A stretch of DNA of 64,000 nt from the NCBI GenBank assembly GCA_963851225.1, contig CAWKON010000008.1, forward strand, positions 56,653 through 120,652, in the 5' to 3' direction. Positions within the stretch are counted from its first letter, which is position 1. Every line of letters begins with the position of its first letter. This stretch comes from an uncultured Alphaproteobacteria bacterium (lineage in GTDB: Bacteria > Pseudomonadota > Alphaproteobacteria > Rhizobiales > Beijerinckiaceae). Of this stretch, positions 13,110-60,431 are shown one piece after another. The notes under the pieces were generated by a model, which was not told the DNA's origin, did not search any database, and was given only the letters and a program-made list of their open reading frames with translations. A program made the position numbers and the translations under genes.

Positions 13110-14398
13110 TCAGCGGCCCATGACCGCGTTGATTGAACTCGACCCACTCCGGAAGGTAAGCGGTCTGGATCGTGTCGGCTCGCAATCTCTTGCTTGAAGA
13201 TCGCCCAACGCGTCGCGCAGCCTGATCAGGCGCTTCTTCGCATCCAAGACGAGCTTGACGACTTTCTCATCGGGCAACTTAAGCTGGGTAATTTGGCGAG
13301 CCGACCTGACGGCAGGATCTATGTGACGTAGCACCAGATGCTCCGCACGACACGGTTCAGGCACTCGCGAGAGATCTTCGAGCTGGTGACTACGCCGGGT
13401 CAACATATGCGCGTCCGAATGCTCGATCTGATCTTCGCGACGGGGGCAGCAGCTGGTGTCCGTACAGCCGACACGTGGCTTTCCCCCTTTCACCGCGAAC
13501 ACCGCGTTAAGTTGTTCTTCGGTGAGATATCGATCGAGATCAGGAATGTAAATCCGAGTTCCAAGCCCTCCGCCTCCACTTGATTGAGGCCGTTTCCACT
13601 GATTAGCTTGAAAGCTCTCCTTTTGACAGACGCCGTGGCTGATACCCGCGACGGCTCCGAACGCAGCAGCAGCGAGCCCTGCGAAACCGCCGGCCGCGTC
13701 TGCGACCAACGGCCGCCCGGTCGCATGAAGGTCTCGGACGGACTGATATATGCCCGAGTGCCAGCTCCGGTCGCGGTCGCCCCAAACCCAGAAATCTTTA
13801 GCCAAACATTTTGGATGGGAAGATTTTCCACGACAGAGATGATTTTCTCACGCCCTCTCGGATCTCGAAGCAGGCTATTAGATGTGATCACTTGGTAGTC
13901 AATCGCGATGCCAGAGCCGCCATTCCGGTCGAGCTCCAGTCGCAACGCATCACAGAGTGTGCGATCAACGGCCCACCAATCGTCGTCCAATGTCTCGACG
14001 AGGTTGCTGGGAGCCAGCACTGCATCGACGCCGTGTTTGATCGCGAATTCTGCGATGAGACGGGCAGGGTTGAGATTGCTTCTGCGGCCGAAATCACTCG
14101 CTTTCCACGGAGTGTCCGCGTTGGCCCACGGCAGCTTCCTCACGCTGGAATCAAAGCCGCCAACTGTCGCCATCTCGGCAAAATTCGGATCCAGAACGGT
14201 CTCGCAACCGCTCGTCTTTAGTGCCTTAAGCAGCTCGATCTGTTTACCAATGTGTCCAGCGTCAAATACGAATTTATTAAACCTCAACTTTCCAGAAGCA
14301 TGCAGCGCTTCAATCCTGCGATGGCCCGTATGTCCGATTCGAAGGAATCCGCCAATGACAGAGGGCTGGGGGTGAAGGACGTGAACAGTGGCGACCAT
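13110..14398 (-). CDS. hypothetical ~430-aa protein, first gene of the Xre/RES operon (one frameshift ~13500-13800); C-terminal Cys cluster GCTDTSCC
   Basis: Two overlapping ORFs (13490..14398 and 13110..13805) read through collinearly. The stop overlaps the antitoxin start by 1 nt on the same strand. No domain is recognisable by eye. Confidence 0.5.
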
Positions 14399-40668: not shown

Positions 40669-40744
40669 TGGCTCCCTGAGCAGGACTCGAACCTGCGACC
40701 GATCGATTAACAGTCGATTGCTCTACCAACTGAGCTATCAGGGA
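40669..40744 (-). tRNA. tRNA-Asn (anticodon GTT), CCA encoded
   Basis: Reverse complement TCCCTGATAGCTCAGTTGGTAGAGC..CGACTGTTAATCGATCG..GGTTCGAGTCC..TCAGGGAGCCA folds as a cloverleaf with anticodon loop CTGTTAA. Confidence 0.9.
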
Positions 40745-40896: not shown

Positions 40897-40970
40897 GGCC
40901 TCGTGGCGGAATGGTTACGCAGAGGACTGCAAATCCTTCCATCCCGGTTCGATTCCGGGCGAGGCCTCCA
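40897..40970 (+). tRNA. tRNA-Cys (anticodon GCA), CCA encoded
   Basis: GGCCTCGTGGCGGAATGGTTACGCAGAGGACTGCAAATCCTTCCATCCCGGTTCGATTCCGGGCGAGGCCTCCA has acceptor, D, anticodon (CTGCAAA loop) and T arms. Confidence 0.9.
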
Positions 40971-43518: not shown

Positions 43519-44197
43519 TTAGCGCCCGCAACTGGGTAAAGCGGCGAGCACCTCCCGACCGAGGATACGTTGTTCTTTCGGCCAGCTCCAAAAATCGCCT
43601 TGGTGCGAGATCGCATCCGCGAGTCTTTGCCGGTAGGCTTCCTTCGTCATTTCGACCGCGCCGAGCGAAGCAAGATGCGGCGTTACGAATTGCGCGTCGA
43701 GCAGGCGGAACCCGCCCTTCGCCAAACGCGCAACGAGATGCACGAGGGCGACTTTCGAGGCGCCGGTTTTGCGGTGAAACATGCTTTCGCCGAAAAACGC
43801 CGCGCCGAGGTGAACGCCGTAGAGCCCGCCAACTAGCGTTCCATCCGCCCAGCTTTCCACGGTATGGACACGGCCTTCATCGAAGAGCTGGCGATAAAGC
43901 AGTTTAATCCGGCCATTGATCCATGTCGATCTCGCGGCCTCATGCGAGGCAGCGCATCCGTCGATCACGGCATCGAAATCGCAATCGATCTCTGATCTCG
44001 AAACGATCGGAGCGGATCGTCTTGGCGAGGCTCTTCGATACGATTAGGCCATCGAGCGGGATAATTCCGCGCTCGTCCGGATCGACCCAGAAAAGATTTT
44101 GGTCGAAAGCGCTTTCCGCCATCGGAAATAGGCCGATGGAATAGGCGCGGAGCACAATATCGCCGGTGATTTCGAATTGGTCGCGGGGACGGCTCAT
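43519..44197 (-). CDS. aat: leucyl/phenylalanyl-tRNA--protein transferase (one frameshift near 43950)
   Basis: [31 protein letters not shown] in ORF 43940..44197. [33 protein letters not shown] in ORF 43519..43968. Confidence 0.8.
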
Positions 44198-47599: not shown

Positions 47600-47625
47600 C
47601 CGCGCGGCAACAGGAAAGCCTTCAT

Positions 47626-48939
47626 ATGACCGATTTTTCTCCGCGTGAGATCGTCTCCGAACTCGACCGTTTCATCGTCGGGCAGAAGGATGCCAAGCGC
47701 GCCGTGGCGATCGCGCTCGCGCAACCGCTGGCGCCGCCTGCGCCTCGAAGGGGCGATGCGCGAGGAGGTGCTGCCGAAGAACATTTTGATGATCGGGCCG
47801 ACCGGCTGCGGCAAGACCGAGATTTCCCGCCGCCTGGCCAAGCTCGCCGGCGCGCCTTTTCTCAAAGTCGAGGCGACGAAATTCACCGAGGTCGGCTATG
47901 TCGGCCGCGATGTCGAGCAGATCGTCCGCGATCTCGTCGAGACCGCGATTACGCATGGTGAAGGAAGAAAAGCGCAAGGCGGTTTCCGCGCGCGCCCAGC
48001 TCGCGGCGGAAGAGCGGGTCCTCGATGCTCTCGTCGGCACCACGGCGTCGGCGTCCACGCGCGACAGCTTCCGCAAGAGGCTGCGGGCGGGCGAACTCGA
48101 CGACAAGGAAATCGAGATCGAGATCGCCCAAGCCTCGCCGTCAATGCCGATGTTCGAATTGCCGAACATGCCGGGCTCGGCGATCGGCGCGATTTCGATC
48201 GGCGATATTTTCGGCAAGGCGCTCGGCAATCGCGCAAAACCGCGCCGCACCACGGTCAAGGATGCCTACGCCCCCTTGATCGTCGAGGAAAGCGACAAGA
48301 TGATCGACCAGGACCAGATCGTTCAGGAGGCGATCCGCGAGGTCGAAAACAATGGAATCGTCTTTCTCGACGAGATCGACAAGATTTGCGCGCGCGAAGG
48401 GCGCGGCGGCGGCGGCGATGTCTCGCGCGAGGGCGTGCAACGCGATCTGCTGCCGCTTGATCGAAGGCACGACGGTCGCGACCAAGCATGGCGCGGTGAA
48501 GACCGATCACATTTTGTTCATCGCGTCGGGCGCCTTCCATGCGTCGAAACCCTCGGACCTCTTGCCCGAATTGCAAGGGCGGCTGCCGATCCGGGTCGAG
48601 CTCTCGCCCTTGAACGAGGACGATTTCCGCCGCATCCTCACCGAAACCGAGGCAAGCCTCATCAAGCAATATGAAGCGCTCCTGCGCACCGAAGGGGTCG
48701 AGCTTTCATTTACGCCCGAAGCGATCAATGCGGTGGCGCGGATCGCGGTGCAGGTCAATTCCTCGGTCGAAAATATCGGCGCGCGGCGGTTGCAGACGGT
48801 GATGGAACGCGTGCTCGACGAGGTGAGCTTTACCGCGTCCGACCGTTTCGGCGAGACGGATCGAAATCGACGCGCGTTCGTCGAGAAGAACATCGGCGAT
48901 CTCGCCAGGAACACCGATCTGAGCCGGTTCATTCTTTGA
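47626..48939 (+). pseudogene. hslU: ATP-dependent protease ATPase subunit HslU, split over 4 frames (>=3 frameshifts)
   Basis: [31 protein letters not shown], then [79 protein letters not shown] and the C-terminal [14 protein letters not shown] are in consecutive ORFs of different frames. The start lies 27 nt after the hslV stop. Confidence 0.85.
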
Positions 48940-49050
48940 CGCTTTGACGTTCGTGGCGACTTTTGGCATAGGCTCATTTGCCGCTGCTGCTGCGTGCGAC
49001 GTGCGCGTTGCGCGAGAGTAATGTTTTGAGGCGCCGGGAGTCCCTCTGAC

Positions 49051-50089
49051 ATGGCAAAATTTCGTTGAACGGGTTTTTTCCGGCGTGCAGCCGACGGGCA
49101 ATCTGCATCTTGGAAATTATCTCGGCGCGATCACCAAATTCGTCGAGCTGCAAAAGACCCATGATTGCATCTATTGCGTCGTCGATCTGCACGCGATCAC
49201 GCTGCCGCAAAAGCCGGAGGAATTGAAGGCGAGCATCAGGGAAGTCACGGCCGCCTTCATCGCCTGCGGCATCGATCCCAAAAAACATATCGTGTTCAAC
49301 CAGAGCCAGGTTGCCGAACATGCCGAGCTCGCCTGGGTGTTCAATTGCGTGGCGCGCATCGGCTGGCTCAACCGCATGACGCAATTCAAGGAGAAGGCGG
49401 GCAAGGACCGCGAGAACGCCTCCGTCGGGCTTTATGCCTATCCTTGTCTGATGGCCGCCGATATTCTTGTCTATCGCGCGACCCATGTCCCGGTCGGCGA
49501 GGACCAAAAGCAGCATCTCGAACTCGCCCGCGACATCGCGCAGAAATTCAATCTCGATTTTGCCGCCTCGATCGCGGCGCATGGGTCATGGCGAGGCGTT
49601 CTTCCCCTTGCCCGAGCCGCTGATCCAGGGGCCGGCCACGCGAGTGATGAGCTTGCGCGACGGCTCCAAGAAAATGTCGAAGTCGGACCCGTCGGACTAT
49701 TCGCGGATCAATCTTTCCGACGATGCCGACACGATCGCCCAAAAAGTCCGCAAGGCGAAGACCGATCCGGACGCGCTGCCGTCTGAAGTCGAAGGGCTCA
49801 AGCAGCGCCCCGAAGCCGAAAATCTCATCGGCATTTTTGCCGCGCTCAATGGCGAGACGAAAGCAGGATGTGCTTGAGGACTTTCGGCGGCGGCAATTTC
49901 TCGGCCTTCAAATCGGCGCTGGTCGATCTCGCGGTGGCCAAACTCGGCCCGATCGGCGCCGAGATGAAACGCCTCAAGGGCGATCCCGCCTTTATCGACG
50001 GCGTTCTCGCCGATGGCGCGGCGCGCGCCCGCGCGATCGCGGCCAAGAACATGGCGTGTGTGAAGGATATTTTGGGCTTCGTGCGGTAA
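49051..50089 (+). pseudogene. trpS: tryptophan--tRNA ligase TrpS, >=3 frameshifts (one 5 nt after the ATG in an A4 run, others ~49570 and ~49865)
   Basis: ATGGCAAAAT then frame change gives MA(N)[23 protein letters not shown] (HIGH-type motif). KMSKS is present in ORF 49467..49877. The C-terminus is in ORF 49868..50089. Confidence 0.8.
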
Positions 50090-50104
50090 CACGATGCTCC
50101 CGGC

Positions 50105-51881
50105 TCACGCCTTCGCTTCCAGGCCTTCGAGATCGGCGATCATTTCTTCGATCATGTTCAGCCCGATCTGCCAAAAGGCGGGATCGCGCGCGTCGAGCCC
50201 GAAAGGCGCGAGCAACTCGGCATGATGTTTCGTGCCTCCCGCCGAAAGCATGGCGAGATAGCGTTCGGCAAAACCTTCCCGCGCGCCCTGATAGACGCCA
50301 TAGAGCGAATTGACGAGACAATCGCCGAACGCATAGGCGTAGACATAAAAGGGCGAATGGATGAAATGCGGAATATAGGCCCAATAGGTCTCGTAATCGG
50401 CTCCAAGCTCGATCGCGGGCCCGAGGCTTTCGGCCTGCTCGCTCATCCATAGAGCGCAGATCTGCGTCCGCCGTCAGCTCGCCGTTGCGCCGTTCGAGAT
50501 GCAGCTTGCGTTCGAACGAATAAAACGCGATCTGCCGCACCACCGTGTTCAGCATGTCCTCGACCTTGGCGGCGAGCATGGCGCGGCGCTGCGCGACATT
50601 CGCCGTGCGCAGAAGCAGGGCGCGGAAACGTCAGCATTTCGCCGAAGACCGAAGCGGTCTCGGCCAAGGTCAGCGGCGTCGGCGCCATCAGCGCGCCATT
50701 CGGGCCGGCCAGAACCTGATGCACGCCGTGGCCGAGTTCATGCGCGAGCGTCATCACGTCGCGCGGCTTGCCCTGGTAATTCAGCAGCACGTAAGGATGC
50801 GCGGAAGGCACGGTCGGATGCGCGAAGGCGCCCGGCTGCTTGCCTGGCCGCACCGGCGCGTCGATCCAGCGCTCGTCGAAGAAGCGCTTGGCGATCCCCG
50901 CCATTTTCGGCGAGAAAGCGTCATAGGCGTCGAGCACAGTGTCGCGCGCCTCGTCCCAAGGATAGATTTTCGGCGCGACATCCGGGCAGCGGCGCATTGC
51001 GGTCCCAATGCTTGAGCGCCGTCTTGCCGAACCATTTGGCCTTGAGCTTGTAATAGCGGTGCGAGAGGCGCGGATAGGCGGCGCGCACGGCGCCGGCCAG
51101 CGCATCGACGACTTCGCGCTCGACGCGGTTGGCGAGATGCCTTGCGTCCGCCACGTCCTGAAAACCGCGCCAGCGGTCGGAAATCTCCTTGTCCTTCGCC
51201 AGGGTGTTGGTGACAAGGGCGAAAACGTCCGCAGATTTTCCTTCAAGCCCGCGCCGAACGCGATCGCCGCCTTTTCGCGGGTCTTCTCATGCGGGTCCTG
51301 CATCAGATTGAGCACCGGCTCGATCGCCAGCTGCCTCGCCATCGACGTTGAAGCGCAGGCTCGCGATCGTCTCGTCGAACAGCCGGTTCCAGGCGCCGTA
51401 GCCGGTGATCGATTTTTCGTGGAACAATTGCTCGAGCTTATCGTCGAGCTGATAGGGCTTGCCCTTGCGGATGTCTTCGAGCCAGGGCCGGTAATGCTTG
51501 AGCGGCGCCGGCCGCCAGTTTGGTCGCGAGCGCGTCGTCGAGCCGGTTCAGTTCGAGTTCGAAGAACAGAAGATCGGAGGACGCGTCGGTGATTTTTTCC
51601 TGCGTGTCGCCATAGAATTTCATCCGCGCCGGGTCGGTGGTGTCGCCCGAATAGACGAGCCCGGCATAGGACATGATGCGCCCGAGCAGCTCTTCCAGCG
51701 CCTCGTAGCGCTTGATCGCCTCGAGAAGCTCCGCGCCGGAGCCTTTCTTGGCGAGCGCTTCGAGCTTGCCCTTGTAGGCGACGTTGAAACTCTTGCATTC
51801 GGTCCCGGCCTTGGCGAGATCGTCCGCGAAGGCGCGGGACTCCATGGAAGGATAGAGGTCTTCGAGGTTCCACTCGGGCAA
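50105..51881 (-). pseudogene. pepF: oligoendopeptidase F (M3B family), highly fragmented across frames
   Basis: N-terminal block PEWNLEDLYPSMESRAFADDLAKA (ORF 51438..51881). C-terminal block YETYWAYIPHFIHSPFYVYAYAFGDCLVNSLY (ORF 50105..50446). The long 510-aa ORF in between is an out-of-frame Arg-rich read. Confidence 0.6.
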
Positions 51882-52129
51882 TGAGCCAAGATCCGGCCGC
51901 GTGCTTTGGCTTCGCGGCGCTTTTTGGTTTGGGGCGAAACATGCTGAGGGATTTGCTGGTGCTCTTGCGCGTCATGGAACGATCCTATTGTGGGATTGCT
52001 GTCATAGCGAGCAAGGCTCCCGCGAACAACCTTTGCCGCTGGGAATGTTTTTCGACCGGCGGGCGAGGTGTGCTGCATAGCTGGTCCGGATCCAAATGAA
52101 AGCGCGGCTTGCCCCTGTGCAATTCTTCC

Positions 52130-52236
52130 TGTGAAGGTCACGCAGCATAAAAAATTTACCCAATTGGGAGCTGTCTTGCGATCCGGATTGGCGTAATCTT
52201 TGCCGCGTTCCCGCATGGAGGAAGAGGAGGTTAGTC
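52130..52236 (+). promoter_or_regulatory. conserved cassette leader, copy 1: sigma54-like -24/-12 element TGGCGT-N5-TTGCC (GG 52190-91, GC 52202-03) and strong SD GGAGGAAGAGGAGG
   Basis: About 100 nt are near-identical to the leaders at 54290 and 56456 (..GCATAAAAATTTACCCAATTGGGAGCTGTCTTGCGATCCGGATTGGC..). Only this copy has GG-N10-GC spacing. Confidence 0.4.
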
Positions 52237-52734
52237 ATGACGGATGGCCATCAGGATTGCAGCGAGGCAAGGACTTCGCTCCACGGCGAAGCGAAACGCA
52301 AGATTTTACGAGGGCTTGTCCTAAAGGCTGTGGCCGCGAGTTTTGCGGCCTGGGCGATGACCTTGCCGGCCCTGGCCCAGCTGGCTGCGCCCGTCTATGT
52401 CACGGGGTCTGCCGCTGCTACAATTACGGTCACTTTCACGGTGGCTCCTCCTACGGGGTCCACGGTTTCTTGCAGCCTGGCGCTGCTCAGCAGTGATCCG
52501 CGCGCGCCGTCCGACAGCGCCTCCGTTACCTCGACGGTGAGCGGCTCGACCGCGACATGCACAGTAACGGTGAACTATAGATGGCGCCTTACGAGCACGA
52601 GCCTCTCCACGGATACGATGACGATTGGTTATTCGGTCCAGGGGCCGGTTGCGACCAGCTCGGGACTTGTCAACATCATTCCGATGCCCGCCAACGGCAC
52701 GCATTTGACTCAGAGTTTCGCGGTTACCCAGTAA
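52237..52734 (+). CDS. cassette copy 1, small secreted beta-rich protein (165 aa; signal peptide ...AMTLPALA|QLAAP), unknown family
   Basis: The ORF is preceded by the SD. The first ~95 codons are nearly identical at the nucleotide level to those of 54412.. and 56576.. . The mature part is Thr/Ser/Val-rich (TITVTFTVAPP...CTVTVNYRWRLTSTS). Confidence 0.8.
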   Translation: MTDGHQDCSEARTSLHGEAKRKILRGLVLKAVAASFAAWAMTLPALAQLAAPVYVTGSAAATITVTFTVAPPTGSTVSCSLALLSSDPRAPSDSASVTSTVSGSTATCTVTVNYRWRLTSTSLSTDTMTIGYSVQGPVATSSGLVNIIPMPANGTHLTQSFAVTQ

Positions 52735-52788
52735 TCGGGCATCAAAGACCTATCCCAGGGTTCCAGTCGGGAGAGGGAGCTAACTTCC

Positions 52789-53916
52789 ATGCATTATTTG
52801 CGCGCTGCTGTCGCCCTGGTGGCGGCTATGACATTCTCAATGACGGCCCTTGGCGAGAGGCGTACGGCCATTGCGGTATTCACAGGGCCGAGCGGCGGCG
52901 TCGCGCCGCCGGACGGTGCACCGCCCTGTGTCTCGACGTTCTGCACATCGATACCAACAAGATACAAAAACACGTTCATTATCGGCATAACGGAGTACGA
53001 GACGACCTACCCTTGCTTTTACATAGATCATGGCCAGTGGACTCCGGGAACCAACATCCAACCTATTGACAAAGGAACGCCTGCTGGGACGGTAGACGTT
53101 TCGGAATTGGCTATCGTAGGTCCAACACCGCCCGGATGCACTGCTGCAGGGGGGCCGTATTTGTATGCTCCGCTTTATTTTGATTGGACCCTTCACAAGA
53201 ATTTAACCTGGTATTTAGGTTACGGCCCAACGGCTTTCTTTCAATCGAATTGGTATACAAAGGACGGTTGGAATTTGCCGTACTCGTTCCAGATTACCGT
53301 GCCGGTAGTGCGTCCAATTGGCGAGACAATCTCGTTTAAGGGTTTTACGGGGGTTATCGGTAACGGCTTAGTAGGCCAATGGCTACAGACACTCACGCCG
53401 CCGACCGACGATCCGAGTTTCGATTTTACTGGAGAGACTGTCCAAGAGGATTTATCCGCTTCTATTGGCAACTGCCTATCTCCACCCGCCAAACTGGTCC
53501 CCCTAGCAGGCACGACAAGGCCCCCTAGTACTTTCCCGGTAGAGAATGGCCCGCCCGGCCAATGGGTTGACGGGGTCGGCTTCGGTGACGAAGCTGATTC
53601 AGCATGTGCCGTTCTATATAATTTCTGCTATCAGCCATCGGGTTGTTTGATGACCAGAACGCAAACGACGGCCATAAAGTCCGACGCCGATTTCGCTGAT
53701 GCCTTTACCAAGTATGGCGGCGTCAACCGCTTGACGGCAGGTCTGCTTGGCAGAATCCTACCAGTCGCCCTGCCATTCCAAAGCCCACAAGGTTTCGGCA
53801 GGATTTTCTCAAGTCGACAATCCACCGAATCCCTAAGCAGTCAATCAGTCAAGAGCAACTTAACTCTAATCTCCACGTCCGTTTGCAAAAATCTTGTTCT
53901 GACGAACTGCAAATAG
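52789..53916 (+). CDS. cassette copy 1, large secreted Cys-rich protein (375 aa; signal MHYLRAAVALVAAMTFSMTALG), unknown family
   Basis: Shares with copies 2 and 3 the signal peptide and the motifs IGITEY, VRPIGET, PPTDDPxFDFTGET and NGPPG. The rest has diverged. Confidence 0.8.
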   Translation: MHYLRAAVALVAAMTFSMTALGERRTAIAVFTGPSGGVAPPDGAPPCVSTFCTSIPTRYKNTFIIGITEYETTYPCFYIDHGQWTPGTNIQPIDKGTPAGTVDVSELAIVGPTPPGCTAAGGPYLYAPLYFDWTLHKNLTWYLGYGPTAFFQSNWYTKDGWNLPYSFQITVPVVRPIGETISFKGFTGVIGNGLVGQWLQTLTPPTDDPSFDFTGETVQEDLSASIGNCLSPPAKLVPLAGTTRPPSTFPVENGPPGQWVDGVGFGDEADSACAVLYNFCYQPSGCLMTRTQTTAIKSDADFADAFTKYGGVNRLTAGLLGRILPVALPFQSPQGFGRIFSSRQSTESLSSQSVKSNLTLISTSVCKNLVLTNCK

Positions 53917-54289
53917 ATGTTGATTACAATTGTTAGAGTCTGTCCGGAAACATCCAGCCGGATTGCAAGGTTTCCGGAGCATGAGGCGAATTGAGGCGAG
54001 GCGCGAGCAATCTGAGTGCCCTCCCGATTGAGGATCTTCCATTCATGGCCTGATCTTGGCCTGCAATGAATGGCGGAATCCGACCTGATGACGTTGTCCC
54101 CAAGTTTGATCCAGGCGCGACTACAATACCGTGCGGCCACGTTCTCGTATCGGCAGGCTGAGGTCAGCCCGCCCATGCCGCCCAATTCTCACCGCAACGG
54201 GCCAAGGCGCTACGCTGCTCGATGGCTCCGCGCCCTGGCCCGTTGCTATGTCTGGACCCAAATGTAAGCCCGTCCTGCCCCTGTGCGGA

Positions 54290-54411
54290 TCTTCCTGCGA
54301 AGCTCTAGGTGGTCACACAGCATAAAAATTTACCCAATTGGGAGCTGTCTTGCGATCCGGATTGGCATAACCTCCTCCGTGTTCCCCGCATGGAGGAAGA
54401 GGAGGTTAGTC
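54290..54411 (+). promoter_or_regulatory. conserved cassette leader, copy 2, with SD-sequestering hairpin (AACCTCCTC 54369-77 pairs with GAGGAGGTT 54399-407)
   Basis: A 9-bp perfect stem occludes the Shine-Dalgarno sequence 6 nt upstream of the ATG. The anti-SD arm is absent from copy 1. Confidence 0.45.
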
Positions 54412-54909
54412 ATGTCGGATGGCCATCAGGATTGCAGCGAGGCAAGGTCTTCGCTCCACGGCGAAGCCAAACGCTATTTTTCACGCGGGCTTATCCTAAG
54501 AGCCTTAGCCGCGAGTTTCGCGGCCTGTGCGATGACCTTGCCGGCCCTGGCCCAGCTGGCTGCGCCCGTGTATGTCACGGGGTCTGCCGCCGCTACAATT
54601 ACGGTCACTTTCACGGTGGCTCCTCCTGCAGCGTCCACCGTTTCTTGTGGCTTGTCGTTGATCAGCAACGATCCACGTACCCCGGCCGACAGCTCAACCG
54701 TAACCGTCACGGTGACGGGTTCGACCGCGATCTGTACAGTAACGGTGAACTATAGATGGCGCCTTACGAGCACGAGCGTTTCCACGGATACGATGACGAT
54801 TGCTTATTCGGTTCAGGGGCCGGTTCAGAACAGCTTTGGCCTTGTCAACATCATTCCAATGCCCGCCAACGGCACGCATTTAAGTCAGAGTTTCGGTGTC
54901 ACGCAGTAA
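54412..54909 (+). CDS. cassette copy 2, small secreted protein (165 aa), paralogue of 52237..52734
   Basis: MSDGHQDCSEARSSLHGEAKRYFSRGLILRALAASFAACAMTLPALAQLAAPVYVTGSAAATITVTFTVAPP... Confidence 0.8.
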   Translation: MSDGHQDCSEARSSLHGEAKRYFSRGLILRALAASFAACAMTLPALAQLAAPVYVTGSAAATITVTFTVAPPAASTVSCGLSLISNDPRTPADSSTVTVTVTGSTAICTVTVNYRWRLTSTSVSTDTMTIAYSVQGPVQNSFGLVNIIPMPANGTHLSQSFGVTQ

Positions 54910-54948
54910 TCAGGCGTCGAGGGGCAATCCGAGGTTGAGGTAACTTCC

Positions 54949-56040
54949 ATGCATTATTTGCGCGCTGCTGTCGCCCTGGTGGCGGCCGTGATGTTTTCAC
55001 TGAGTGCCGCTGGCCAGGCGCCTCCGGCCGCTAAAATCGGGTCGACCTCCGGCAAGGCGGTGGCCATCCGGGCATTGTCCCCGAACCCAGTGGGCGGCAT
55101 CAATCCTTTGGCCGGCACCATGGTGAAACGACAAACGGAAACGTTCATAGCGGGCATCGCGGAGATCAATCCTGATACCTGCGCATTTATAAATTCTGGC
55201 TCGTGGACCTTCACCCTGAATCCAACGTTTGGGAAGACCACCTGGAGAGTTGAATCTGGCACGTCAGCAACGGGTCAACCATGTGCTGGCCATACATATA
55301 ATTTTGCTAAAATATTTTACACGTGGACCGCTCATAACAATCACACCACAACGCCAAATCAAGGACCAACTGATATTTTTAACGCGACTTGGACGACCCC
55401 TGACGGGATGTTTAACGATCCGTTCGTGTTCAATATTATTACGAATCCAGTGCGTCCAAAGGGCGAGACCACTGCATTGCAAAGTTGGCAAGACTCCTTT
55501 GGTATATGGAAGGTAACGCTCGTATGCTGCGCCCCGCCAGATGATGACGATGCGGCGTTCGATTTCACGGGCGAAACGGTGAACGAGGTTTTCCTAAGTG
55601 ACCAAAACTCGTGTCCAGGTAACGCATCCGTTAACCCGAGCATGGGAACAGTAAATAATGGACCACCAGGTAGTTTTCATGACAAAATTGGGTTTGATCC
55701 GTGCGTCGTACATTATGCTCGATGTTTAATGAAAGCTGGTTGTGGGTTCGTAGTTAAGCAGCAGATGGAAATAAATTCTCCAGCAGATCCAGCTAATACA
55801 TTTTTTTCTTATGGAACTGCGCCAAATACTTTGAGTTCAAGAGTTGAGGGTGGTATTATCGTCAATCTTGCCGGCAAGTTGACCTCTAGGAGCGGGGTAG
55901 GCCAAATAACATCTCAAAGGAGCACGCCCCTAAGCCCGTTCACTCCGGCGCACCATGACTTTCCGAGCGACAAAGCTTCGTGTTTTGCGAAAGCCCAGGA
56001 TCTTCAGTTCTACCTAGCGATGCTAGATAAACGATGCTGA
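54949..56040 (+). CDS. cassette copy 2, large secreted Cys-rich protein (363 aa), paralogue of 52789..53916
   Basis: The signal peptide MHYLRAAVALVAAVMFSLSAAG and the motifs VRPKGET, PPDDDDAAFDFTGET and NGPPG are conserved. Otherwise it is <35% identical by eye. Confidence 0.8.
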   Translation: MHYLRAAVALVAAVMFSLSAAGQAPPAAKIGSTSGKAVAIRALSPNPVGGINPLAGTMVKRQTETFIAGIAEINPDTCAFINSGSWTFTLNPTFGKTTWRVESGTSATGQPCAGHTYNFAKIFYTWTAHNNHTTTPNQGPTDIFNATWTTPDGMFNDPFVFNIITNPVRPKGETTALQSWQDSFGIWKVTLVCCAPPDDDDAAFDFTGETVNEVFLSDQNSCPGNASVNPSMGTVNNGPPGSFHDKIGFDPCVVHYARCLMKAGCGFVVKQQMEINSPADPANTFFSYGTAPNTLSSRVEGGIIVNLAGKLTSRSGVGQITSQRSTPLSPFTPAHHDFPSDKASCFAKAQDLQFYLAMLDKRC

Positions 56041-56099
56041 GTCCAAACGGTCAGACGGGTAGCGGGAGCGTCACGGGGGAAAATCTTAAGCGATGGTGG

Positions 56100-56455
56100 A
56101 CGGAACCGCTTTAGCGGGATCTCCCCACGACCCCTGTTGGAAGGAACAGCCTTCCGAAAGGATGGCGGCCATGTCCTGGATTACAAAATAAACTGCCAGA
56201 TAAAGCTTTGGTATGAACCTGCCGCACGGGCGCTTGATCGCCGGCCGGCCAGAGCAACGCGCCATTCATTTCAAGGCGGCGATTTGGAGCCAGACCCGCC
56301 TCGCCGATCATGTTTGACATCCAATGAATGGCGGAATCTGGCCTCGGCCGAAGCGCCATCGGACATGTGCGAGCGCCGGTCTTACAGATTGAACGAGAGA
56401 TTACCGTGTGCTGTCTCGTAAGGTTTTGGCCGACAATCGTATCAAAATGCGGGCC
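56100..56455 (+). repeat. ~350-bp conserved non-coding repeat 3' of cassette copy 2 (copies also at 58380..58733, partial at ~54040-54085)
   Basis: Shared blocks CCCCACGACCC, TCCGAAAGGAT and TTGACATCCAATGAATGGCGGAATCTGGCCTCGGCCGAAGCGCCATCGGACATGTGCGAGCGCCGGTCTTACAGATTGAACGAGAG, ending ..CAATCGTATCAAAATG. Confidence 0.6.
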
Positions 56456-56575
56456 TTCCTGCGAAGATCTAGGTAGTGAAGCAGCATAAAAATTTACCCA
56501 ATTGGGAGCTGTCTTGCGATCCGGATTGGCATAACCTCCTCCGTGTTCCCCGCATGGAGGAAGAGGAGGTTAGTC
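56456..56575 (+). promoter_or_regulatory. conserved cassette leader, copy 3, with SD-sequestering hairpin (56533-41 with 56563-71)
   Basis: Identical to the copy-2 leader over ~115 nt. Confidence 0.45.
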
Positions 56576-57073
56576 ATGTCGGATGGCCATCAGGATTGCA
56601 GCGAGGCAAGGTCTTCGCTCCACGGCGAAGCCAAACGCTATTTTTCACGCGGGCTTATCCTAAGAGCCTTAGCCGCGAGTTTCGCGGCCTGTGCGATGAC
56701 CTTGCCGGCCCTGGCCCAGCTGGCTGCGCCCGTGTATGTCACGGGGTCTGCCGCCGCTACAATTACGGTCACTTTCACGGTGGCTCCTCCTACGGGGTCC
56801 ACTGTTTCTTGTAACCTGGCGTTGGTCAGTAATGATCCGCGCGCGCCGTCCGACAGCGCCTCCGTTACCTCGACGGTGAGCGGCTCGACCGCGACCTGTG
56901 TAGTAACGCTGAACTACAGATGGCGCCTCACGAGCACAAGCCTCTCCACGGATTTGATGACGATTGGTTATTCGGTCCAGGGGCCGGTTGCGACCAGCTC
57001 GGGACTTGTCAACATCATTCCAATGCCGGCCGACGGTACGCATTTGAGTCAGAGTTTCGGGGTCACCCAGTAA
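56576..57073 (+). CDS. cassette copy 3, small secreted protein (165 aa)
   Basis: The N-terminal half is identical to copy 2. The mature region is closer to copy 1 (APPTGSTVSC...NYRWRLTSTSLSTD). Confidence 0.8.
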   Translation: MSDGHQDCSEARSSLHGEAKRYFSRGLILRALAASFAACAMTLPALAQLAAPVYVTGSAAATITVTFTVAPPTGSTVSCNLALVSNDPRAPSDSASVTSTVSGSTATCVVTLNYRWRLTSTSLSTDLMTIGYSVQGPVATSSGLVNIIPMPADGTHLSQSFGVTQ

Positions 57074-57125
57074 TCGGGCGTCGAGTACTAATCCGAGGTT
57101 TCTAATCGGGACGGAGCTAACTTCC

Positions 57126-58349
57126 ATGCATTATTTGCGCGCTGCTGTCGCTCTCGTGGCGGCTATGACGTTCTCTTCAATGGCTTTTGGCGAGACGCGT
57201 CCGGCGATTGCGATATTCTCGGCGCCGGATGGCCCTAGGGCGCTAGCCATCGAACCCTCAAACACCCCCAGTTCGGCCACCTACTCCACAAGCATTGCAA
57301 GATATACCCCCGTGCCCACGTTGATTATCGGCATAACCGAGTACGATCCATTGAACTGCAAATGGCTAGATTTGGCAAGTGGACCGACCCCAACTCGTCT
57401 CTTAAACCTGTATTCAAAGGGAAGCCTGCTGGGCCGGTAGGCTACCAGAGAACTTTTGCAGGCACATTACCGAGCACCACGCCTTGCCCTGGACTGGCAG
57501 TTACTTATCTCGCAATAGATTTTTCGTGGATGGCTCATTACAATCAAACCGGATTAGGATCAGGCGTTGCTCCACCTCCATGTAAAACAACAAATCCAGT
57601 GTGCCCAACGGCTGTTTTTCAAGGAGAATGGACCACGAAGGACAAAATGTTTGATATAGTGTACAGCTTCCAAGTTAGCGTGGATGTGGTGCGTCCAATT
57701 GGCGAGACGACTAACTGGCAGGGTTGGTCGGGATGGTTCGGTAGCGGCCTCGTGGGCCAATGGGCGGCGACGCTCAAGCCTCCAACCACAGATCCGGATT
57801 TCGATTTTACAGGGGAGACGACACAAGAAAGATTTTCTAATAAAAAAGACACCTGCGCTCTTAAAACGACTACAAAAAATAACATTCCACTGGGAAACGT
57901 AACAAGTCCCGGCAAGAACTTTCCGGTAATGGATGGCCCGCCTGGTAAGTATATTGACGGAGTTGAGCGTCGGTGGTGACGATCCGCAATCAGTATGTTC
58001 CGTACTCTGTCATTTCATCACAAATCCAGCTGGTTGCTTTCTCTCAGTACAGCAGCAGATGAGCATTATGTCCCCGGCCGATACGGCCTTTGTCAAATAT
58101 CCCGCCGTTAATATCCTCGAAGCTGGCAGCATCGGCTCAATCACCTCCGCGTTCCTAGTCCTAAAGCCCTCACAAGGCCACGCCACCGTAACATCAAATC
58201 GCTATCCCATTTCTGGCCCACGCCCTGAACCAATGAGCCATCCAAGCGGCGATCTCGACCTGAGCAATTGTACTAGTATTAGGATTCCTCTTCCTACTAA
58301 ACCTGTTACTTCTAGAAACTTTAATTTTCCCCAAGATTGTAGTAAATAG
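57126..58349 (+). pseudogene. cassette copy 3, large secreted Cys-rich protein, reading frame broken twice (~57400, ~57960)
   Basis: ORFs 57126..57440, 57362..57979 and 57933..58349 are consecutive. Conserved motifs include IGITEY, VRPIGETTNWQGW, PPTTDPDFDFTGET and DGPPGKYIDGV. Confidence 0.7.
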
Positions 58350-58379
58350 ATGTAGCTTGCATTTTATAGAGTAGGGGAG

Positions 58380-58733
58380 CGCACAGGGGGATAGCCGGTT
58401 TTCCCACGACCCTTGAGTTGGATGCGCTGAATATCCGAAAGGATATCGGCCACGCCCAGGATTACAAAAATGCGGCCAGAGAAAGCTTCGGTCTAATCAT
58501 GCCGGGCGGGGGCGTGATTGCCGGCCCGCCAGCGCAGCGCACCATTCATCACGAGCCAACGAGTCTGGTAAGCGGGCCCGCCTCGCCGATCATGCTTGAC
58601 ATCCAACGAATGGCGGAATCCGGCCTCGGCCGAATCGCCATCGGACATGTGCGAACGCCGGTCTTACAGATTGAACGAGAGACCGCCGTCTGATGCCTTG
58701 TAAGGTTTTTGCCCCGATCGTACCAAAATGTTT
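58380..58733 (+). repeat. 3' cassette repeat, copy after cassette 3, abutting the IS5-family element
   Basis: ~85% identical to 56100..56455 with small indels. Its last bases CGATCGTACCAAAATG coincide with the start of the IS terminal inverted repeat. Confidence 0.6.
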
Positions 58734-59905
58734 CGAGACCTGGGTGCGGGGGTTTCTTATTTTGTTGTTTGACGCGGCTTTGGCGATTTGCCGGGTTGGA
58801 AGCACTGCGGCTGGAAAATTCTGGTTGAGCTGCGGCCGCCCCGCTTCTCGCGGGCTTTGCCGCGGAGCGCTTTTGCCGCCGCTCAGGCGGTTTGCAGCCG
58901 GAGGGAGCGCTTCATATTGTAAGCGATGGCGGCAAGACGCACTTGCAATCTGGCTTTGGCCAAGCCCATCCACCGCATCGCGCGAAAGTGATAACTGCGC
59001 TTCCAGGTGCCAAAAATTTTTTCAATGCGCGGCCGGATGGGCTTGAGCGGGCGATTATGTTCTTTGAGCGCTTCGGCCTTGAGCCAGCGATGGCCCTTGC
59101 GCAAGAGCTTCGCGGTCCCGCCCTTCGCTTCGATCGCCGCCCCGGCCGAGAGCGCATCATAGGCCTTGCCGCCATAGACCTCGCCCGGATCATCGGGAAT
59201 GATCGAAGGAGCAATGTTGACATCGGCCTCGTTGGCGGGCGCCGTCTCAACCTCGCGGATGATTCCCGTGTCCTTACCGGCGGCAATATGCGCCTTATAG
59301 CCATGCATGGGCGCGCGGCTCTTGTGCTTGGCCCAGGCGGCTTCGTGATCGCCCTTGGACGCCGGGCCAATCACCGCCGCATCGATCAGCGCGCCTTTGC
59401 GGACAGCGGCGCCTTTGGCTTCGAGATCGCGCGCGATTGCTTCAAACAAGCTCTTGTCGAGATCCTGCGCTAAAAGCAGGCGGCGGAAGCGCACAAAGGC
59501 GGTGCGCCCGGGGGGGTCTTCCTCGCGGGCAAAGCCGCAAAAGCGGCGGAAGCTCGCGCGGTCCGCGAGCGCTTCTGCCAGCATCACATCGGAAAGATCA
59601 TACCAGCTTGCGATGAGCAGCGCCTTGAACATCGAAAACGGCGGCCAAGCCTTTTCGCCCATTGCCGGAGCATAAAGCCCGGTCAAGGTGCGGCCCGCGG
59701 GCTCCCAATCGATCAAGGTCAAAAGCGCATCAAGGCTCGTTGGCCGCACAGCCCTTGCGCCGAAACGAAAACTCTCCTGCCCGATCTGCCGCAGCGCCAT
59801 GATCACCTCCAATCTCATTCGATGAAATGGAATCATAGACCGCAGTCCGCGACAAGCATTCGCAGAAACTTGCGCACAGGTCTCGAAACATTTCGGTACG
59901 ATTGG
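58722..59905 (-). mobile_element. IS5-family insertion sequence (~1.18 kb) with ~30-bp terminal inverted repeats
   Basis: Inverted repeats ATCGTACCAAAATGTTTCGAGACCTGGGTGCG (58722..) and, as reverse complement, CAATCGTACCGAAATGTTTCGAGACCTGTGCGC (..59905). A single transposase gene lies inside. Confidence 0.7.
58883..59836 (-). CDS. IS5-family DDE transposase (317 aa)
   Basis: MIPFHRMRLEVIMALRQIG...LIDWEPAGRTL...WPPFSMFKALLIASWYDLSDVMLAEAL...RFCGF and C-terminal DDE region. The start is taken at MIPFHR; the longer ORF reads through the inverted repeat. Confidence 0.8.
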   Translation of the reverse strand: MIPFHRMRLEVIMALRQIGQESFRFGARAVRPTSLDALLTLIDWEPAGRTLTGLYAPAMGEKAWPPFSMFKALLIASWYDLSDVMLAEALADRASFRRFCGFAREEDPPGRTAFVRFRRLLLAQDLDKSLFEAIARDLEAKGAAVRKGALIDAAVIGPASKGDHEAAWAKHKSRAPMHGYKAHIAAGKDTGIIREVETAPANEADVNIAPSIIPDDPGEVYGGKAYDALSAGAAIEAKGGTAKLLRKGHRWLKAEALKEHNRPLKPIRPRIEKIFGTWKRSYHFRAMRWMGLAKARLQVRLAAIAYNMKRSLRLQTA

Positions 59906-60431
59906 CGAAAAGCGGCGGCGGCGCGCTGCTGGCGGCGTTTGATGCGCGAACGTGTGCCCAGTGTAAGATTGGCACGAATGAGCGTGCCGGAGAAGTGCCG
60001 AGGCCAAGCCCAGCGTTTGATACCGGCCGGTTTTCAAAAATGGAAAACTTTTGCACCTGAATTCTGCACCGAGAAAGTCTTTAAAAATCAAACGCCGATT
60101 TTTGGTGCAATAATCTTGCAGACTGCGAGAAAACTCACCCACGCGAGCGGCAATTGATGGATTTCAGCCGATTTCGGCGGTTCTCGTCCATCACAGGCTC
60201 GCCGAGGCGCAAAAATTTGGTCAAGACGAACCACTTCTCGGCAAAATCCTAGTTTTCACACGGTCTGCTTGAATTTTGCACCAAATGAAACGCGTAACGC
60301 GTTTGACGCGCGTCGTCGCCGCGAGCCTTTGCAAGAAGGAAAATTCTAGCCGCGTGGACTCGCTCCAGGATTTATGGCCTTGCGTCCCGATGTAGGTAGC
60401 ACCAAATGAGGTTGACGCTACAGGGAGTCAA

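What the first reader, a model, noticed from the sequence alone, without database searches (positions are those of the whole stretch)
52130..58733. Three tandem, diversified copies of a two-gene secreted-protein cassette with a conserved leader: candidate undescribed system
A ~2.16-kb unit recurs three times head-to-tail. Each unit has a ~120-nt leader, a ~165-aa secreted beta-rich protein, a ~365-aa secreted Cys-rich protein and a ~340-bp 3' repeat. The leaders, signal peptides and first ~30 mature residues are almost identical at the nucleotide level. The mature domains have diverged strongly, and the small and large proteins have different closest paralogues between copies. This is the pattern expected for gene conversion at the 5' ends plus diversifying selection on exported domains, as in phase/antigenic-variation or contingency loci. 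Neither protein resembles a family I can name. The large proteins share only short motifs (IGITEY, VRP[IK]GET, PPTDDPxFDFTGET, NGPPG, C-terminal Cys pairs). Copy 3 has frame breaks. An IS5-family element abuts the array.
Basis: seen in the sequence. Interest (0 to 1): 0.85.

Follow-up and report, generated by a model that had tools for sequence, protein, structure and literature searches.

The report
Tandem secreted two-gene cassettes, swapped alleles
Three side-by-side copies of an uncharacterised two-gene operon for exported proteins sit here in an uncultured peat-soil bacterium; a near-constant small gene is paired with three anciently diverged versions of a large gene, which looks like recombinational stacking of old alleles rather than on-the-spot antigenic variation.

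Summary
The repeat is real. There are three head-to-tail units with a period of 2160-2177 bp. Each unit has a conserved leader, a 165-aa exported beta-sandwich protein and a ~365-407-aa exported, Cys-containing protein made of several beta-sandwich domains. An IS5-family element abuts the array.

- The ~300-nt 3' repeat is shared only by units 2 and 3.
- The small proteins are not strongly diverged (82-89% identity, dN/dS ~0.3).
- The frame breaks in copy 3 are two single-base indels. The same assembly has essential genes (trpS, hslU) broken the same way, so sequencing error is the likely cause.

Neither protein matches Pfam, NCBIfam, PADLOC, PHROGs or PDB sequences. The fold searches return only generic Ig-like sandwiches. 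The small-then-large pair is strictly conserved in about 20 loci from Methylocella-like MAGs and peat metagenomes, and it has no conserved neighbours.

The three large genes belong to three old lineages (36-44% identity to each other, dS 0.9-2.1). Each has a closer relative elsewhere (62-80%). The leader, small gene and large-gene signal peptide are homogenised within this genome (dS 0-0.35). No hallmark of phase variation was found.

Best reading: a polymorphic exported module of unknown function, probably a binding or surface protein, whose large-gene cassettes are exchanged and stacked through conserved flanks. The protein families are new, the evolutionary mode is known, and interest is moderate.

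The parts
52084..52236 (+). Leader of unit 1. It contains the 10-bp palindrome CCCAATTGGG (52159-52168), a sigma-54-like TGG-N8-TTGC motif (52165-52179) and a strong Shine-Dalgarno sequence GGAGGAAGAGGAGG (52217-52230).
   Evidence: The leader is 82-92% identical to the leaders of units 2 and 3. It is conserved in L001, L007, L008 and L010.
52237..52734 (+). Small gene 1. It encodes a 165-aa precursor with a long n-region, a hydrophobic core and an ALA|Q cleavage site. The mature part is a 7-stranded beta-sandwich with two invariant Cys.
52789..53916 (+). Large gene 1. It encodes 375 aa with a Sec signal peptide and 10 Cys. The protein is almost entirely beta. Its lineage is closest to P0002 (62%).
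53917..54250 (+). Spacer after large gene 1. It is mostly unique sequence, shares only 32 nt with the 3' element of units 2 and 3, and contains a 17-bp-stem hairpin at 54194-54246.
54250..54411 (+). Leader of unit 2. It has the same palindrome (54333-54342), the TGG-N8-TTGC motif (54339-54353) and the Shine-Dalgarno sequence (54392-54405). It is predicted to form a hairpin that sequesters the SD and the AUG.
54412..54909 (+). Small gene 2 (165 aa). It is 82% identical to copy 1 and 87% identical to copy 3.
54949..56040 (+). Large gene 2 (363 aa). It belongs to a different old lineage, closest to P0095 (80%), L012 and L008 (52-53%), and is only 36% identical to copies 1 and 3.
56102..56449 (+). 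3' element of unit 2. A conserved core of about 90 nt (56102-56188) is followed by the longer repeat shared with unit 3.
   Evidence: The repeat is 82% identical over 297 nt to 58434-58730. The core is also conserved downstream of large genes in L007, L011, L004 and L001. There is no Rfam match and no covariation support.
56448..56575 (+). Leader of unit 3, identical to the leader of unit 2 over most of its length. Palindrome at 56497-56506, TGG-N8-TTGC at 56503-56517, Shine-Dalgarno sequence at 56556-56569.
56576..57073 (+). Small gene 3 (165 aa). Its 5' third is identical to copy 2. The remainder is closest to copy 1.
57126..58349 (+). Large gene 3. It reads through as about 407 aa once two single-base indels (near 57373 and 57962) are corrected. 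It is 72% identical to P0012 and 69% identical to the large protein of L010.
   Evidence: Indels of the same kind break essential genes elsewhere in the window.
58374..58730 (+). 3' element of unit 3, with its core at 58374-58469.
58708..59911 (-). IS5-family insertion sequence that abuts and slightly overlaps the end of the last 3' element. Synteny with the related locus L001 ends here.
   Evidence: Transposase with DUF772 + DDE_Tnp_1. 40-nt inverted repeats. The genes downstream of the array in L001 are absent from the window.

Best explanation
SHOWN
- The region holds three head-to-tail copies of a self-contained operon. Its order is leader, small exported beta-sandwich protein, large exported disulfide-containing multi-beta-sandwich protein, then a conserved 3' element in units 2 and 3.
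- The small-then-large pair is an obligate gene pair in an uncultured Methylocella-like alphaproteobacterial lineage from peat and acid soils. It has no conserved neighbours and no described family.
- The three large genes are three old allelic lineages. They are not recent duplicates that diverged in place.
- The leader, the small gene and the signal peptide of the large gene are kept nearly identical within this genome by recombination or gene conversion.
- Across genomes the large-gene type is reassorted relative to the small gene.
- At the same chromosomal site, next to pepF, related MAGs carry one unit, or one unit plus a decayed second unit, with different large-gene types.

INFERRED
- The conserved 5' module, and where present the 3' element, act as homology arms. 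Large-gene cassettes are swapped, duplicated and deleted through them. This genome has stacked three specificities.
- Both products are exported by Sec and fold in the periplasm or outside the cell with disulfides.
- I propose that the small protein is a constant partner (scaffold, anchor or chaperone-like subunit), and that it works with an interchangeable large binding protein (adhesin-, lectin- or receptor-like). In this model the conserved central/C-terminal core carries the common activity and the variable N-terminal part and loops set specificity.
- Each unit is probably controlled on its own by a 5' UTR hairpin that occludes the Shine-Dalgarno sequence and the start codon.
For: Anatomy.

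No known family: Pfam, NCBIfam, PADLOC and PHROGs; PDB sequence profiles.

Obligate pair: in every locus with enough sequence the small gene is directly followed by a large gene on the same strand. Flanking genes are shared only between close relatives.

Narrow distribution: 4 loci among the representatives of 185,579 species, all MAGs labelled Methylocella sp. or uncultured Alphaproteobacteria, plus 16 metagenome loci.

Old lineages of the large gene: paralogue identity is 36-44% against 62-80% to proteins from other samples. dS is 0.9-2.1 for the mature large genes, 0.18-0.35 for the small genes and 0 for the 5' segment shared by units 2 and 3.

Reassortment: L010 and L011 have small proteins 70% identical but large proteins 32% identical. 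L010 and unit 3 have small proteins 64% identical but large proteins 69% identical.

Same site, different content: the window, L001/L006, L007 and L008 all lie next to pepF. L001 retains the last 47 nt of a second small gene in front of its second large gene.

Composition: the large genes have about 50% GC against a background of about 61%.

Exported nature: signal peptides with AxA/AxG cleavage sites are conserved in both families. Ten Cys are present in large protein 1, and several Cys columns are invariant.

Leader hairpin: 80.8% of cells are paired, against 37-53% in slid controls. Seven pairs change on both sides (25 of 500 shuffles reach this). The covariation score is 0.281 against 0.235 (7 of 500 shuffles). 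Fold z-scores are -2.5 to -3.3 for units 2 and 3.
Against: - The function is not shown. No ligand, partner contact or localisation was tested, and fold matches are non-specific.
- The invariant polar residues of the large family (R58, R175, E216, E220, D212, D261, Q292, D301, with E179 nearly invariant) fit an enzyme or a metal site as well as a binding site.
- The small genes could owe part of their similarity to purifying selection (dN/dS about 0.3) rather than to conversion alone.
- Support for the leader hairpin is modest. The structure was derived from one of the aligned sequences, unit 1 folds differently, and L001 gives z -0.5.
- The 3' element is missing from unit 1, so it is not required.
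Confidence: 0.5

Rival explanations
1. Contingency or antigenic-variation locus. Gene conversion at conserved 5' ends together with diversifying selection would generate variants of an exposed protein in situ, with switching between copies.
For: The 5' ends are conserved and there is a clear conversion tract between units 2 and 3. The proteins are exported. The large genes are highly polymorphic.
Against: There are no simple-sequence repeats and no invertible-promoter repeats. There are no promoter-less silent cassettes, since all three units have a full leader, SD and AUG. The large-gene lineages predate this genome, because closer relatives exist elsewhere. dN/dS is below 1 and dS is saturated. 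Most relatives carry a single pair.
Confidence: 0.12
2. Polymorphic secreted effector used in competition between bacteria, with stacked or orphan modules as in CDI or Rhs arrays. The small protein would be an accessory or export factor.
For: The large alleles vary between strains at one chromosomal site. A truncated large gene and a decayed unit are present in L001 and L007. The variable gene has lower GC. An IS lies at the edge of the array.
Against: No toxin, peptidase or nuclease domain was detected. No variable immunity gene lies downstream. The partner gene is upstream, exported and conserved, which is the opposite of an immunity protein. No dedicated secretion system lies nearby. There is no PADLOC hit.
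Confidence: 0.12
3. Extracellular or periplasmic enzyme (for example acting on a polysaccharide or envelope polymer) or metal-binding protein. The conserved central/C-terminal core would be catalytic or a metal site. The variable N-terminal sandwich would be a substrate-targeting module, and the small protein an accessory.
For: Invariant charged and polar residues cluster in the motifs VRPxGE, FDFxGE..E, D..G and Q.M.I..AD. The same core of about 150 aa (profile positions 179-325) recurs at the C-terminus of TIG- or PKD-containing proteins in other soil bacteria (610 hits at E < 1e-3). Beta-helix proteins flank the pair in L022.
Against: There is no similarity to any enzyme family or solved enzyme fold. 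The small protein has almost no His or Met and no metal-binding motif. The core is a beta-sandwich-like region, not a recognisable catalytic fold.
Confidence: 0.15
4. Assembly artefact: a single copy expanded in error, or a chimera of strains.
For: The assembly is error-prone. Units 2 and 3 share a 100% identical 300-nt stretch.
Against: The three large genes are 36-44% identical, and each matches a different independent lineage elsewhere. Related MAGs also show more than one unit at this site. Unit junctions are ordinary sequence with intact leaders.
Confidence: 0.03

Closest known systems
Multigene families of surface or secreted proteins under concerted evolution, with cassette exchange through conserved flanks (allele replacement at polymorphic surface-protein loci)
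   Same: The 5' module (leader, small gene, signal peptide) is conserved and homogenised, and a partly conserved 3' element brackets a highly polymorphic exported gene. Alleles are old and are reassorted between genomes. Copy number varies at a fixed chromosomal site.
   Different: Both proteins are of unknown families. The constant partner is a separate upstream gene rather than a constant domain. No switching machinery is present: no SSRs, invertase or silent copies.
Uncharacterised secreted proteins of soil bacteria (for example Terracidiphilus, Acidobacteriota) with TIG or PKD domains followed by the same C-terminal core
   Same: They share a core of about 150 aa (profile positions 179-325), with motifs such as PT.ETT.F.GW, W.QT, DTCWF, WG.D.VGW, YYR..GRAPCG and QQM.
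   Different: Those proteins have other N-terminal domains. They are followed by two different conserved genes: a secreted protein of about 270-294 aa, which is fused to the large-like protein in P0142, P0146, P0165 and P0166, and a PEP-CTERM-like protein of about 180 aa. They have no upstream small sandwich gene. None of those partners occurs in the window.
Chaperone-usher fimbrial operons and fimbrial subunit/adhesin pairs
CDI/Rhs orphan toxin-immunity arrays
   Same: Both are tandem stacked polymorphic modules with conserved 5' homology, include truncated copies in relatives, and are associated with an IS.
   Different: There is no toxin domain and no cognate variable immunity gene. The conserved partner is exported and lies upstream. 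No T5SS or T6SS context is present.

Membership tests
Chaperone-usher fimbriae | Outer-membrane usher (PF00577) and PapD-like periplasmic chaperone (PF00345) encoded with the subunits | tested here: not met
   No Pfam or NCBIfam match for any cassette protein. The pair occurs alone in unrelated genomic contexts with no conserved neighbour.
Chaperone-usher fimbriae | Pilin subunit with an incomplete Ig fold (missing G strand) and a match to a fimbrial family | tested here: not met
   The model is a complete 7-strand sandwich with pLDDT 85-94. No fimbrial Pfam hit was found.
Spore-coat-protein-U / Csu-type pili (PF05229) | SCPU domain match | tested here: not met
   No hit at E <= 1 for the three window small proteins, and none at E <= 0.1 in the scan of all 32 small-family members.
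Phase-variable contingency locus | Hypermutable simple-sequence tract in the promoter or coding region | tested here: not met
   Tandem Repeats Finder returns 0 arrays in 51800-59000 at minimum score 30.
Phase-variable contingency locus | Invertible promoter flanked by inverted repeats, with a nearby recombinase | tested here: not met
   The only sizeable inverted repeats are the IS ends, a small terminator-like hairpin and short chance-level matches elsewhere. None brackets a leader, and there is no invertase.
Antigenic variation by gene conversion (expression site plus silent cassettes) | One expressed copy and promoter-less partial donor cassettes | tested here: not met
   All three units carry a full leader, SD, AUG and signal peptides.
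Antigenic variation by gene conversion (expression site plus silent cassettes) | Variants generated within the lineage | tested here: not met
   Each large gene has a closer relative in another sample than in its own genome. dS is 0.9-2.1.
Polymorphic toxin-immunity modules (CDI/Rhs-like) | Recognisable toxin domain, and a downstream immunity gene that co-varies with it | tested here: not met
   No toxin domain was found. No ORF downstream of the large genes has a family match or is conserved at the protein level. The partner gene is upstream and conserved.
PEP-CTERM / exosortase substrates | C-terminal PEP motif, transmembrane helix and basic tail | tested here: not met
   The window proteins end in a Cys-bounded loop (large) or in VTQ (small). 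A PEP-CTERM-like tail is seen only in a neighbouring gene of distant acidobacterial relatives.
Pfam DUF6931 | Match over the family's domain in most members | tested here: not met
   Only 2 of 32 small-family members match. The match covers residues 7-75, which is the signal-peptide region and the start of the mature domain, not the beta-sandwich.
Sigma-54-dependent promoter | -24 GG and -12 GC elements at the correct spacing, conserved, plus an enhancer-binding protein | tested here: inconclusive
   TGGGAGCTGTCTTGC is conserved in U1-U3, L001, L007, L008 and L010, with a variable middle. However, the minimal pattern occurs 17 times in the window against 10.7 expected. No activator gene lies nearby.

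The most novel reading that the evidence does not exclude
This may be a previously undescribed two-component exported module. A constant small beta-sandwich subunit would present or activate interchangeable large 'specificity' subunits drawn from a pool of ancient alleles that recombine through conserved flanks. Possible roles are kin or partner recognition, attachment to peat polymers or hosts, or acting as a phage-receptor or decoy layer. The module would be evolutionarily tied to a wider unnamed superfamily that in Acidobacteriota is wired to PEP-CTERM-type partners. Each unit would be gated by its own SD-sequestering leader.
Probability: 0.2. Interest if true: 0.75.

Novelty: new variant of a known kind. 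Interest (0 to 1): 0.5.

Why it matters
This locus is a clean natural example of allele stacking in an environmental bacterium. A constant gene and regulatory leader are homogenised, while the adjacent exported gene keeps deep allelic lineages that move between genomes.

The analysis defines two unnamed protein families. It also defines a wider unnamed C-terminal domain with more than 600 detectable relatives in soil bacteria. That wider domain shows gene-fusion and operon links to other unknown exported proteins.

These families belong to abundant peatland Beijerinckiaceae and Acidobacteriota, whose surface biology is almost unstudied. If the large proteins are specificity determinants, they would be handles for studying strain-level interactions in peat microbiomes.

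There is also a practical caution. Frame breaks in long-read MAGs such as this one must not be read as pseudogenes.

Tried and rejected
- Pfam, NCBIfam, PADLOC and PHROGs scans of all cassette proteins gave no real hits.
- The DUF6931 hit on two small-family members covers only the signal-peptide region and the start of the mature domain, so I rejected it.
- PDB sequence-profile searches found nothing.
- Rfam gave no match to the leader or the 3' element, either at gathering thresholds or at E <= 1.
- RNAalifold on the 3' core gave no covariation support.
- megablast against plasmids, and tblastn of large protein 1 against plasmids and phages, found no match. The viral-contig scan found no relatives.
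- The first genome-contig scan, with a single protein, found nothing. The exact look-up of the window's own proteins also failed.
- I tested whether the small protein is homologous to the PEP-CTERM-like neighbour of distant relatives. It is not (hhalign probability 0.4%).
- I tested whether the partner proteins of distant relatives occur in the window. They do not.
- The sigma-54 promoter idea is kept only as a lead, because the minimal motif is common by chance.
- The whole-gene dN/dS test for positive selection on the large genes is uninformative, because dS is saturated.

Full report
**1. The observation**

The ORF list and the repeat search confirm three head-to-tail units. The leader and small-gene segments start 2175 and 2164 bp apart. 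The starts of the large genes are 2160 and 2177 bp apart.

The small ORFs are at 52237-52734, 54412-54909 and 56576-57073, each 165 aa. The large ORFs are at 52789-53916 (375 aa) and 54949-56040 (363 aa). The third large gene spans 57126-58349 in three reading frames.

A unit-by-unit DNA alignment gives the following identities:
- Leader and small gene: 73-100%.
- Units 2 and 3: 100% identical from about 54337/56501 for about 300 nt.
- First ~100 nt of the large gene (signal peptide): conserved.
- Mature part of the large gene: 35-55%, with a few more conserved stretches around the shared motifs.

BLAST of the spacers shows that the leader (about 125-160 nt) is shared by all three units. The ~300-nt 3' repeat is shared only by units 2 and 3 (56153-56449 and 58434-58730, 82% identity). 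Unit 1 shares only 32 nt with it.

The neighbouring element is an IS5-family IS. Its transposase carries DUF772 and DDE_Tnp_1 domains, and it has 40-nt terminal inverted repeats at 58708-58747 and 59872-59911.

**2. Quality of the sequence**

A syntenic relative (L001, from an ENA long-read assembly) has intact hslV-hslU-trpS ... pepF immediately upstream of its own cassette. I ran tblastn of those proteins against the window. In the window:
- hslU is split over four frame segments.
- trpS is split over two.
- pepF is split over about five.
- The Leu/Phe-tRNA-protein transferase gene is split over two.

trpS is essential, so these are assembly indels and not pseudogenes.

The closest genome records are Microflora Danica MAGs with "contig_N" names. 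That project used deep Nanopore sequencing of soils (PMC12313526, found). Assigning the window itself to that project is my inference.

Large gene 3 aligns end to end with P0012 (68-69% identity) once two single-base indels are allowed. One is a missing base in ATTTGG near 57373. The other is an extra G near 57962. Copy 3 therefore cannot be called a pseudogene.

A collapsed or expanded repeat artefact is excluded, because the large genes are only 36-44% identical to each other.

**3. What the proteins are**

No cassette protein matches Pfam, NCBIfam, PADLOC or PHROGs. Profiles of both families find nothing in PDB sequences.

*Large family.* There were 35 hits, aligned as A1. The protein has a standard signal peptide and several invariant Cys. 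Its invariant or nearly invariant motifs are RY, VPVVRPxGE, FDFTGE..E, D.VG, C.....Q.M.I..AD and TS.R. A C-terminal Cys-bounded loop is present in most members.

**4. Distribution and context**

A profile-guided scan covered the representative genomes of 185,579 species. It found only four loci. All are MAGs labelled Methylocella sp. or uncultured Alphaproteobacteria.

The metagenome scan added 16 loci. By their sample names these come largely from peat and bog datasets, which is my inference.

In every locus with enough sequence, the small gene is followed directly by a large gene on the same strand.

Flanking genes are shared only among close relatives:
- The window, L001/L006, L007 and L008 lie next to pepF.
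- L004 and L011 lie next to aroA-cmk.
- Other loci lie elsewhere.

The pair is therefore a self-contained module. No relatives were found in phage, plasmid or viral-contig collections.

**5. Evolution of the array**

Identity matrices and an NJ tree of 68 large proteins place the three window copies in three separate deep clades. Their nearest relatives come from other samples:

| Copy | Nearest relative(s) | Identity |
|---|---|---|
| Unit 1 | P0002 | 62% |
| Unit 2 | P0095 | 80% |
| Unit 3 | P0012 / L010 | 72% / 69% |

The three small proteins, by contrast, are 82-89% identical to each other and 45-78% identical to those of more distant loci.

Nei-Gojobori estimates:

| Region | dS | dN/dS |
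|---|---|---|
| Small genes | 0.18-0.35 | 0.25-0.36 |
| Units 2 vs 3, leader plus signal-peptide codons | 0 | not defined |
| Units 2 vs 3, rest of small gene | 0.32 | 0.36 |
| Large-gene signal peptides | 0.18-0.60 | not computed |
| Mature large genes | 0.9-2.1 | below 1 but unreliable (dS saturated) |

The 5' module therefore shares a much more recent ancestry than the large-gene bodies. This indicates concerted evolution or cassette replacement, not in-place diversification.

Across genomes the large-gene type is reassorted relative to the small gene. L010 and L011 have small proteins 70% identical and large proteins 32% identical. L010 and unit 3 have small proteins 64% identical and large proteins 69% identical.

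At the orthologous pepF site:
- L008 has one unit, with a different large-gene type.
- L001 and L007 have one unit with a truncated large gene, then the last 47 nt of a second small gene, then an intact second large gene of yet another type.

Multi-unit arrays therefore form and decay at this site.

The large genes have about 50% GC against a background of about 61%.

A core of about 90 nt lies downstream of the large-gene stop codon. It is conserved in units 2 and 3 and in L007, L011, L004 and L001. Together with the 5' module it brackets the variable gene. It has no Rfam match and no covariation support for a structure.

**6. The leader**

The leader is conserved at the DNA level in L001, L007, L008 and L010. 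It contains:
- the palindrome CCCAATTGGG;
- an overlapping TGG-N8-TTGC motif, whose TGG and TTGC are invariant while the middle varies;
- a very strong Shine-Dalgarno sequence.

The minimal sigma-54 pattern is frequent by chance: 17 observed against 10.7 expected. I keep it only as a lead.

In units 2 and 3 the 5' UTR folds into a long hairpin that pairs an anti-SD stretch (UAACCUCCUCC) with the SD, and pairs the start codon region as well (z -2.5 to -3.3).

Across 11 distinct leaders, including divergent ones, 80.8% of cells are paired, against 37-53% in slid controls. Seven pairs change on both sides (25 of 500 shuffles reach this). The covariation score is 0.281 against 0.235 (7 of 500 shuffles).

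This gives moderate support for translational occlusion. Two caveats apply. The structure was derived from one of the aligned sequences, and unit 1 folds differently.

**7. Wider relatives**

The exhaustive profile search found 610 proteins at E < 1e-3. The distant ones match only profile positions about 179-325. That segment lies at the C-terminus of proteins of 280-780 aa, some of which carry TIG or PKD domains. One of them is annotated as a Terracidiphilus hypothetical protein.

In two such loci (L026, L028) the gene is followed by two conserved genes:
- a secreted protein of about 270-294 aa;
- a protein of about 173-190 aa with a PEP-CTERM-like tail.

In P0142, P0146, P0165 and P0166 the first of these partners is fused to a large-like protein.

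Neither partner occurs in the window or in the Methylocella-type loci. The small protein is not homologous to the PEP-CTERM-like protein.

The large protein therefore belongs to a broad, unnamed superfamily of exported proteins in soil bacteria. Different lineages combine it with different exported partners.

**8. Interpretation**

*Shown:*
- a strict two-gene exported module, triplicated here;
- old, reassorting large-gene alleles;
- a homogenised 5' module;
- variation in copy number and gene content at one site;
- no hallmarks of phase variation.

*Inferred:*
- The conserved flanks serve as recombination arms.
- The products act in the envelope or outside the cell.
- The small protein is a constant partner for interchangeable large binding proteins.
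- Each unit is gated by its leader hairpin.

The rivals are a contingency locus, a polymorphic effector, an enzyme or metal-binding protein, and an assembly artefact. They are weighed in the structured fields. None can be excluded on function except the artefact.

**9. Verdict**

The structure is real. The protein families are unnamed and narrowly distributed. The evolutionary pattern is interesting, but the mode is a known one: concerted evolution combined with allele stacking.

I rate the interest as moderate (0.5) and the novelty as a new variant of a known kind, with function unknown.

Noticed in passing
window 47600-51900 (hslU, trpS, pepF) and 43525-44197: Housekeeping genes, including essential trpS, are split over several reading frames relative to an intact relative. 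About 10 frame shifts occur in about 6.5 kb. This indicates an error-prone (probably Nanopore-only) assembly. Any 'pseudogene' call in this window is unsafe.
   Followed up: yes
window 58708-59911: A complete IS5-family element (40-nt inverted repeats, DUF772 + DDE_Tnp_1 transposase) is inserted at the end of the third 3' element. Synteny with L001 and L007 (their downstream genes SRAP, BNR, ThiS ...) is lost beyond it. The IS may therefore mark a rearrangement.
   Followed up: partly
L026 6001-8764; L028 6001-9006; proteins P0142, P0146, P0165, P0166: In Acidobacteriota-type relatives the shared C-terminal core sits in a conserved three-gene operon with a secreted protein of about 280 aa and a PEP-CTERM-like protein of about 180 aa. 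In several proteins the 280-aa partner is fused to the large-like protein. None of these families is in Pfam.
   Followed up: partly
window 52159-52179, 54333-54353, 56497-56517: A perfect 10-bp palindrome CCCAATTGGG overlaps a sigma-54-like TGG-N8-TTGC motif in every leader. It is conserved in L001, and conserved with substitutions in L007, L008 and L010. It could be an operator and/or a -24/-12 promoter.
   Followed up: partly
window 56102-56188 and 58374-58469; also L007 ~13330-13420, L011 ~4770-4860, L004 ~11200-11290, L001 ~13300-13390: A conserved non-coding core of about 90 nt lies just downstream of the large-gene stop codon and contains a GAAA-loop hairpin. It has no Rfam match and no covariation support, and its function is unknown.
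   Followed up: partly
window 54194-54246: A hairpin with a 17-bp stem (94% complementary) and a 19-nt loop lies between large gene 1 and the leader of unit 2. It is a possible terminator or insulator specific to unit 1.
   Followed up: no
L001 11985-12076 (same in L006, L007): The last 47 nt of a small gene survive in front of the second large gene, and the first large gene is truncated (305 aa). This is a decayed two-unit array at the same pepF-adjacent site.
   Followed up: yes
window 52800-53900, 55000-56000, 57200-58400: The large genes have about 50% GC against about 61% in flanking housekeeping DNA. The small genes are close to the background value.
   Followed up: partly
window 40672-40744 (-) and 40897-40967 (+): Two divergently oriented tRNA genes are the only Rfam gathering-level hits in the window.
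   Followed up: no
L022 4568-5491, 8146-8994, 9141-10127; L018 4384-5319: In a more distant metagenomic lineage (ERZ500994) the pair is flanked by paralogous right-handed beta-helix proteins. This may be a hint of an extracellular polysaccharide-related neighbourhood.
   Followed up: no
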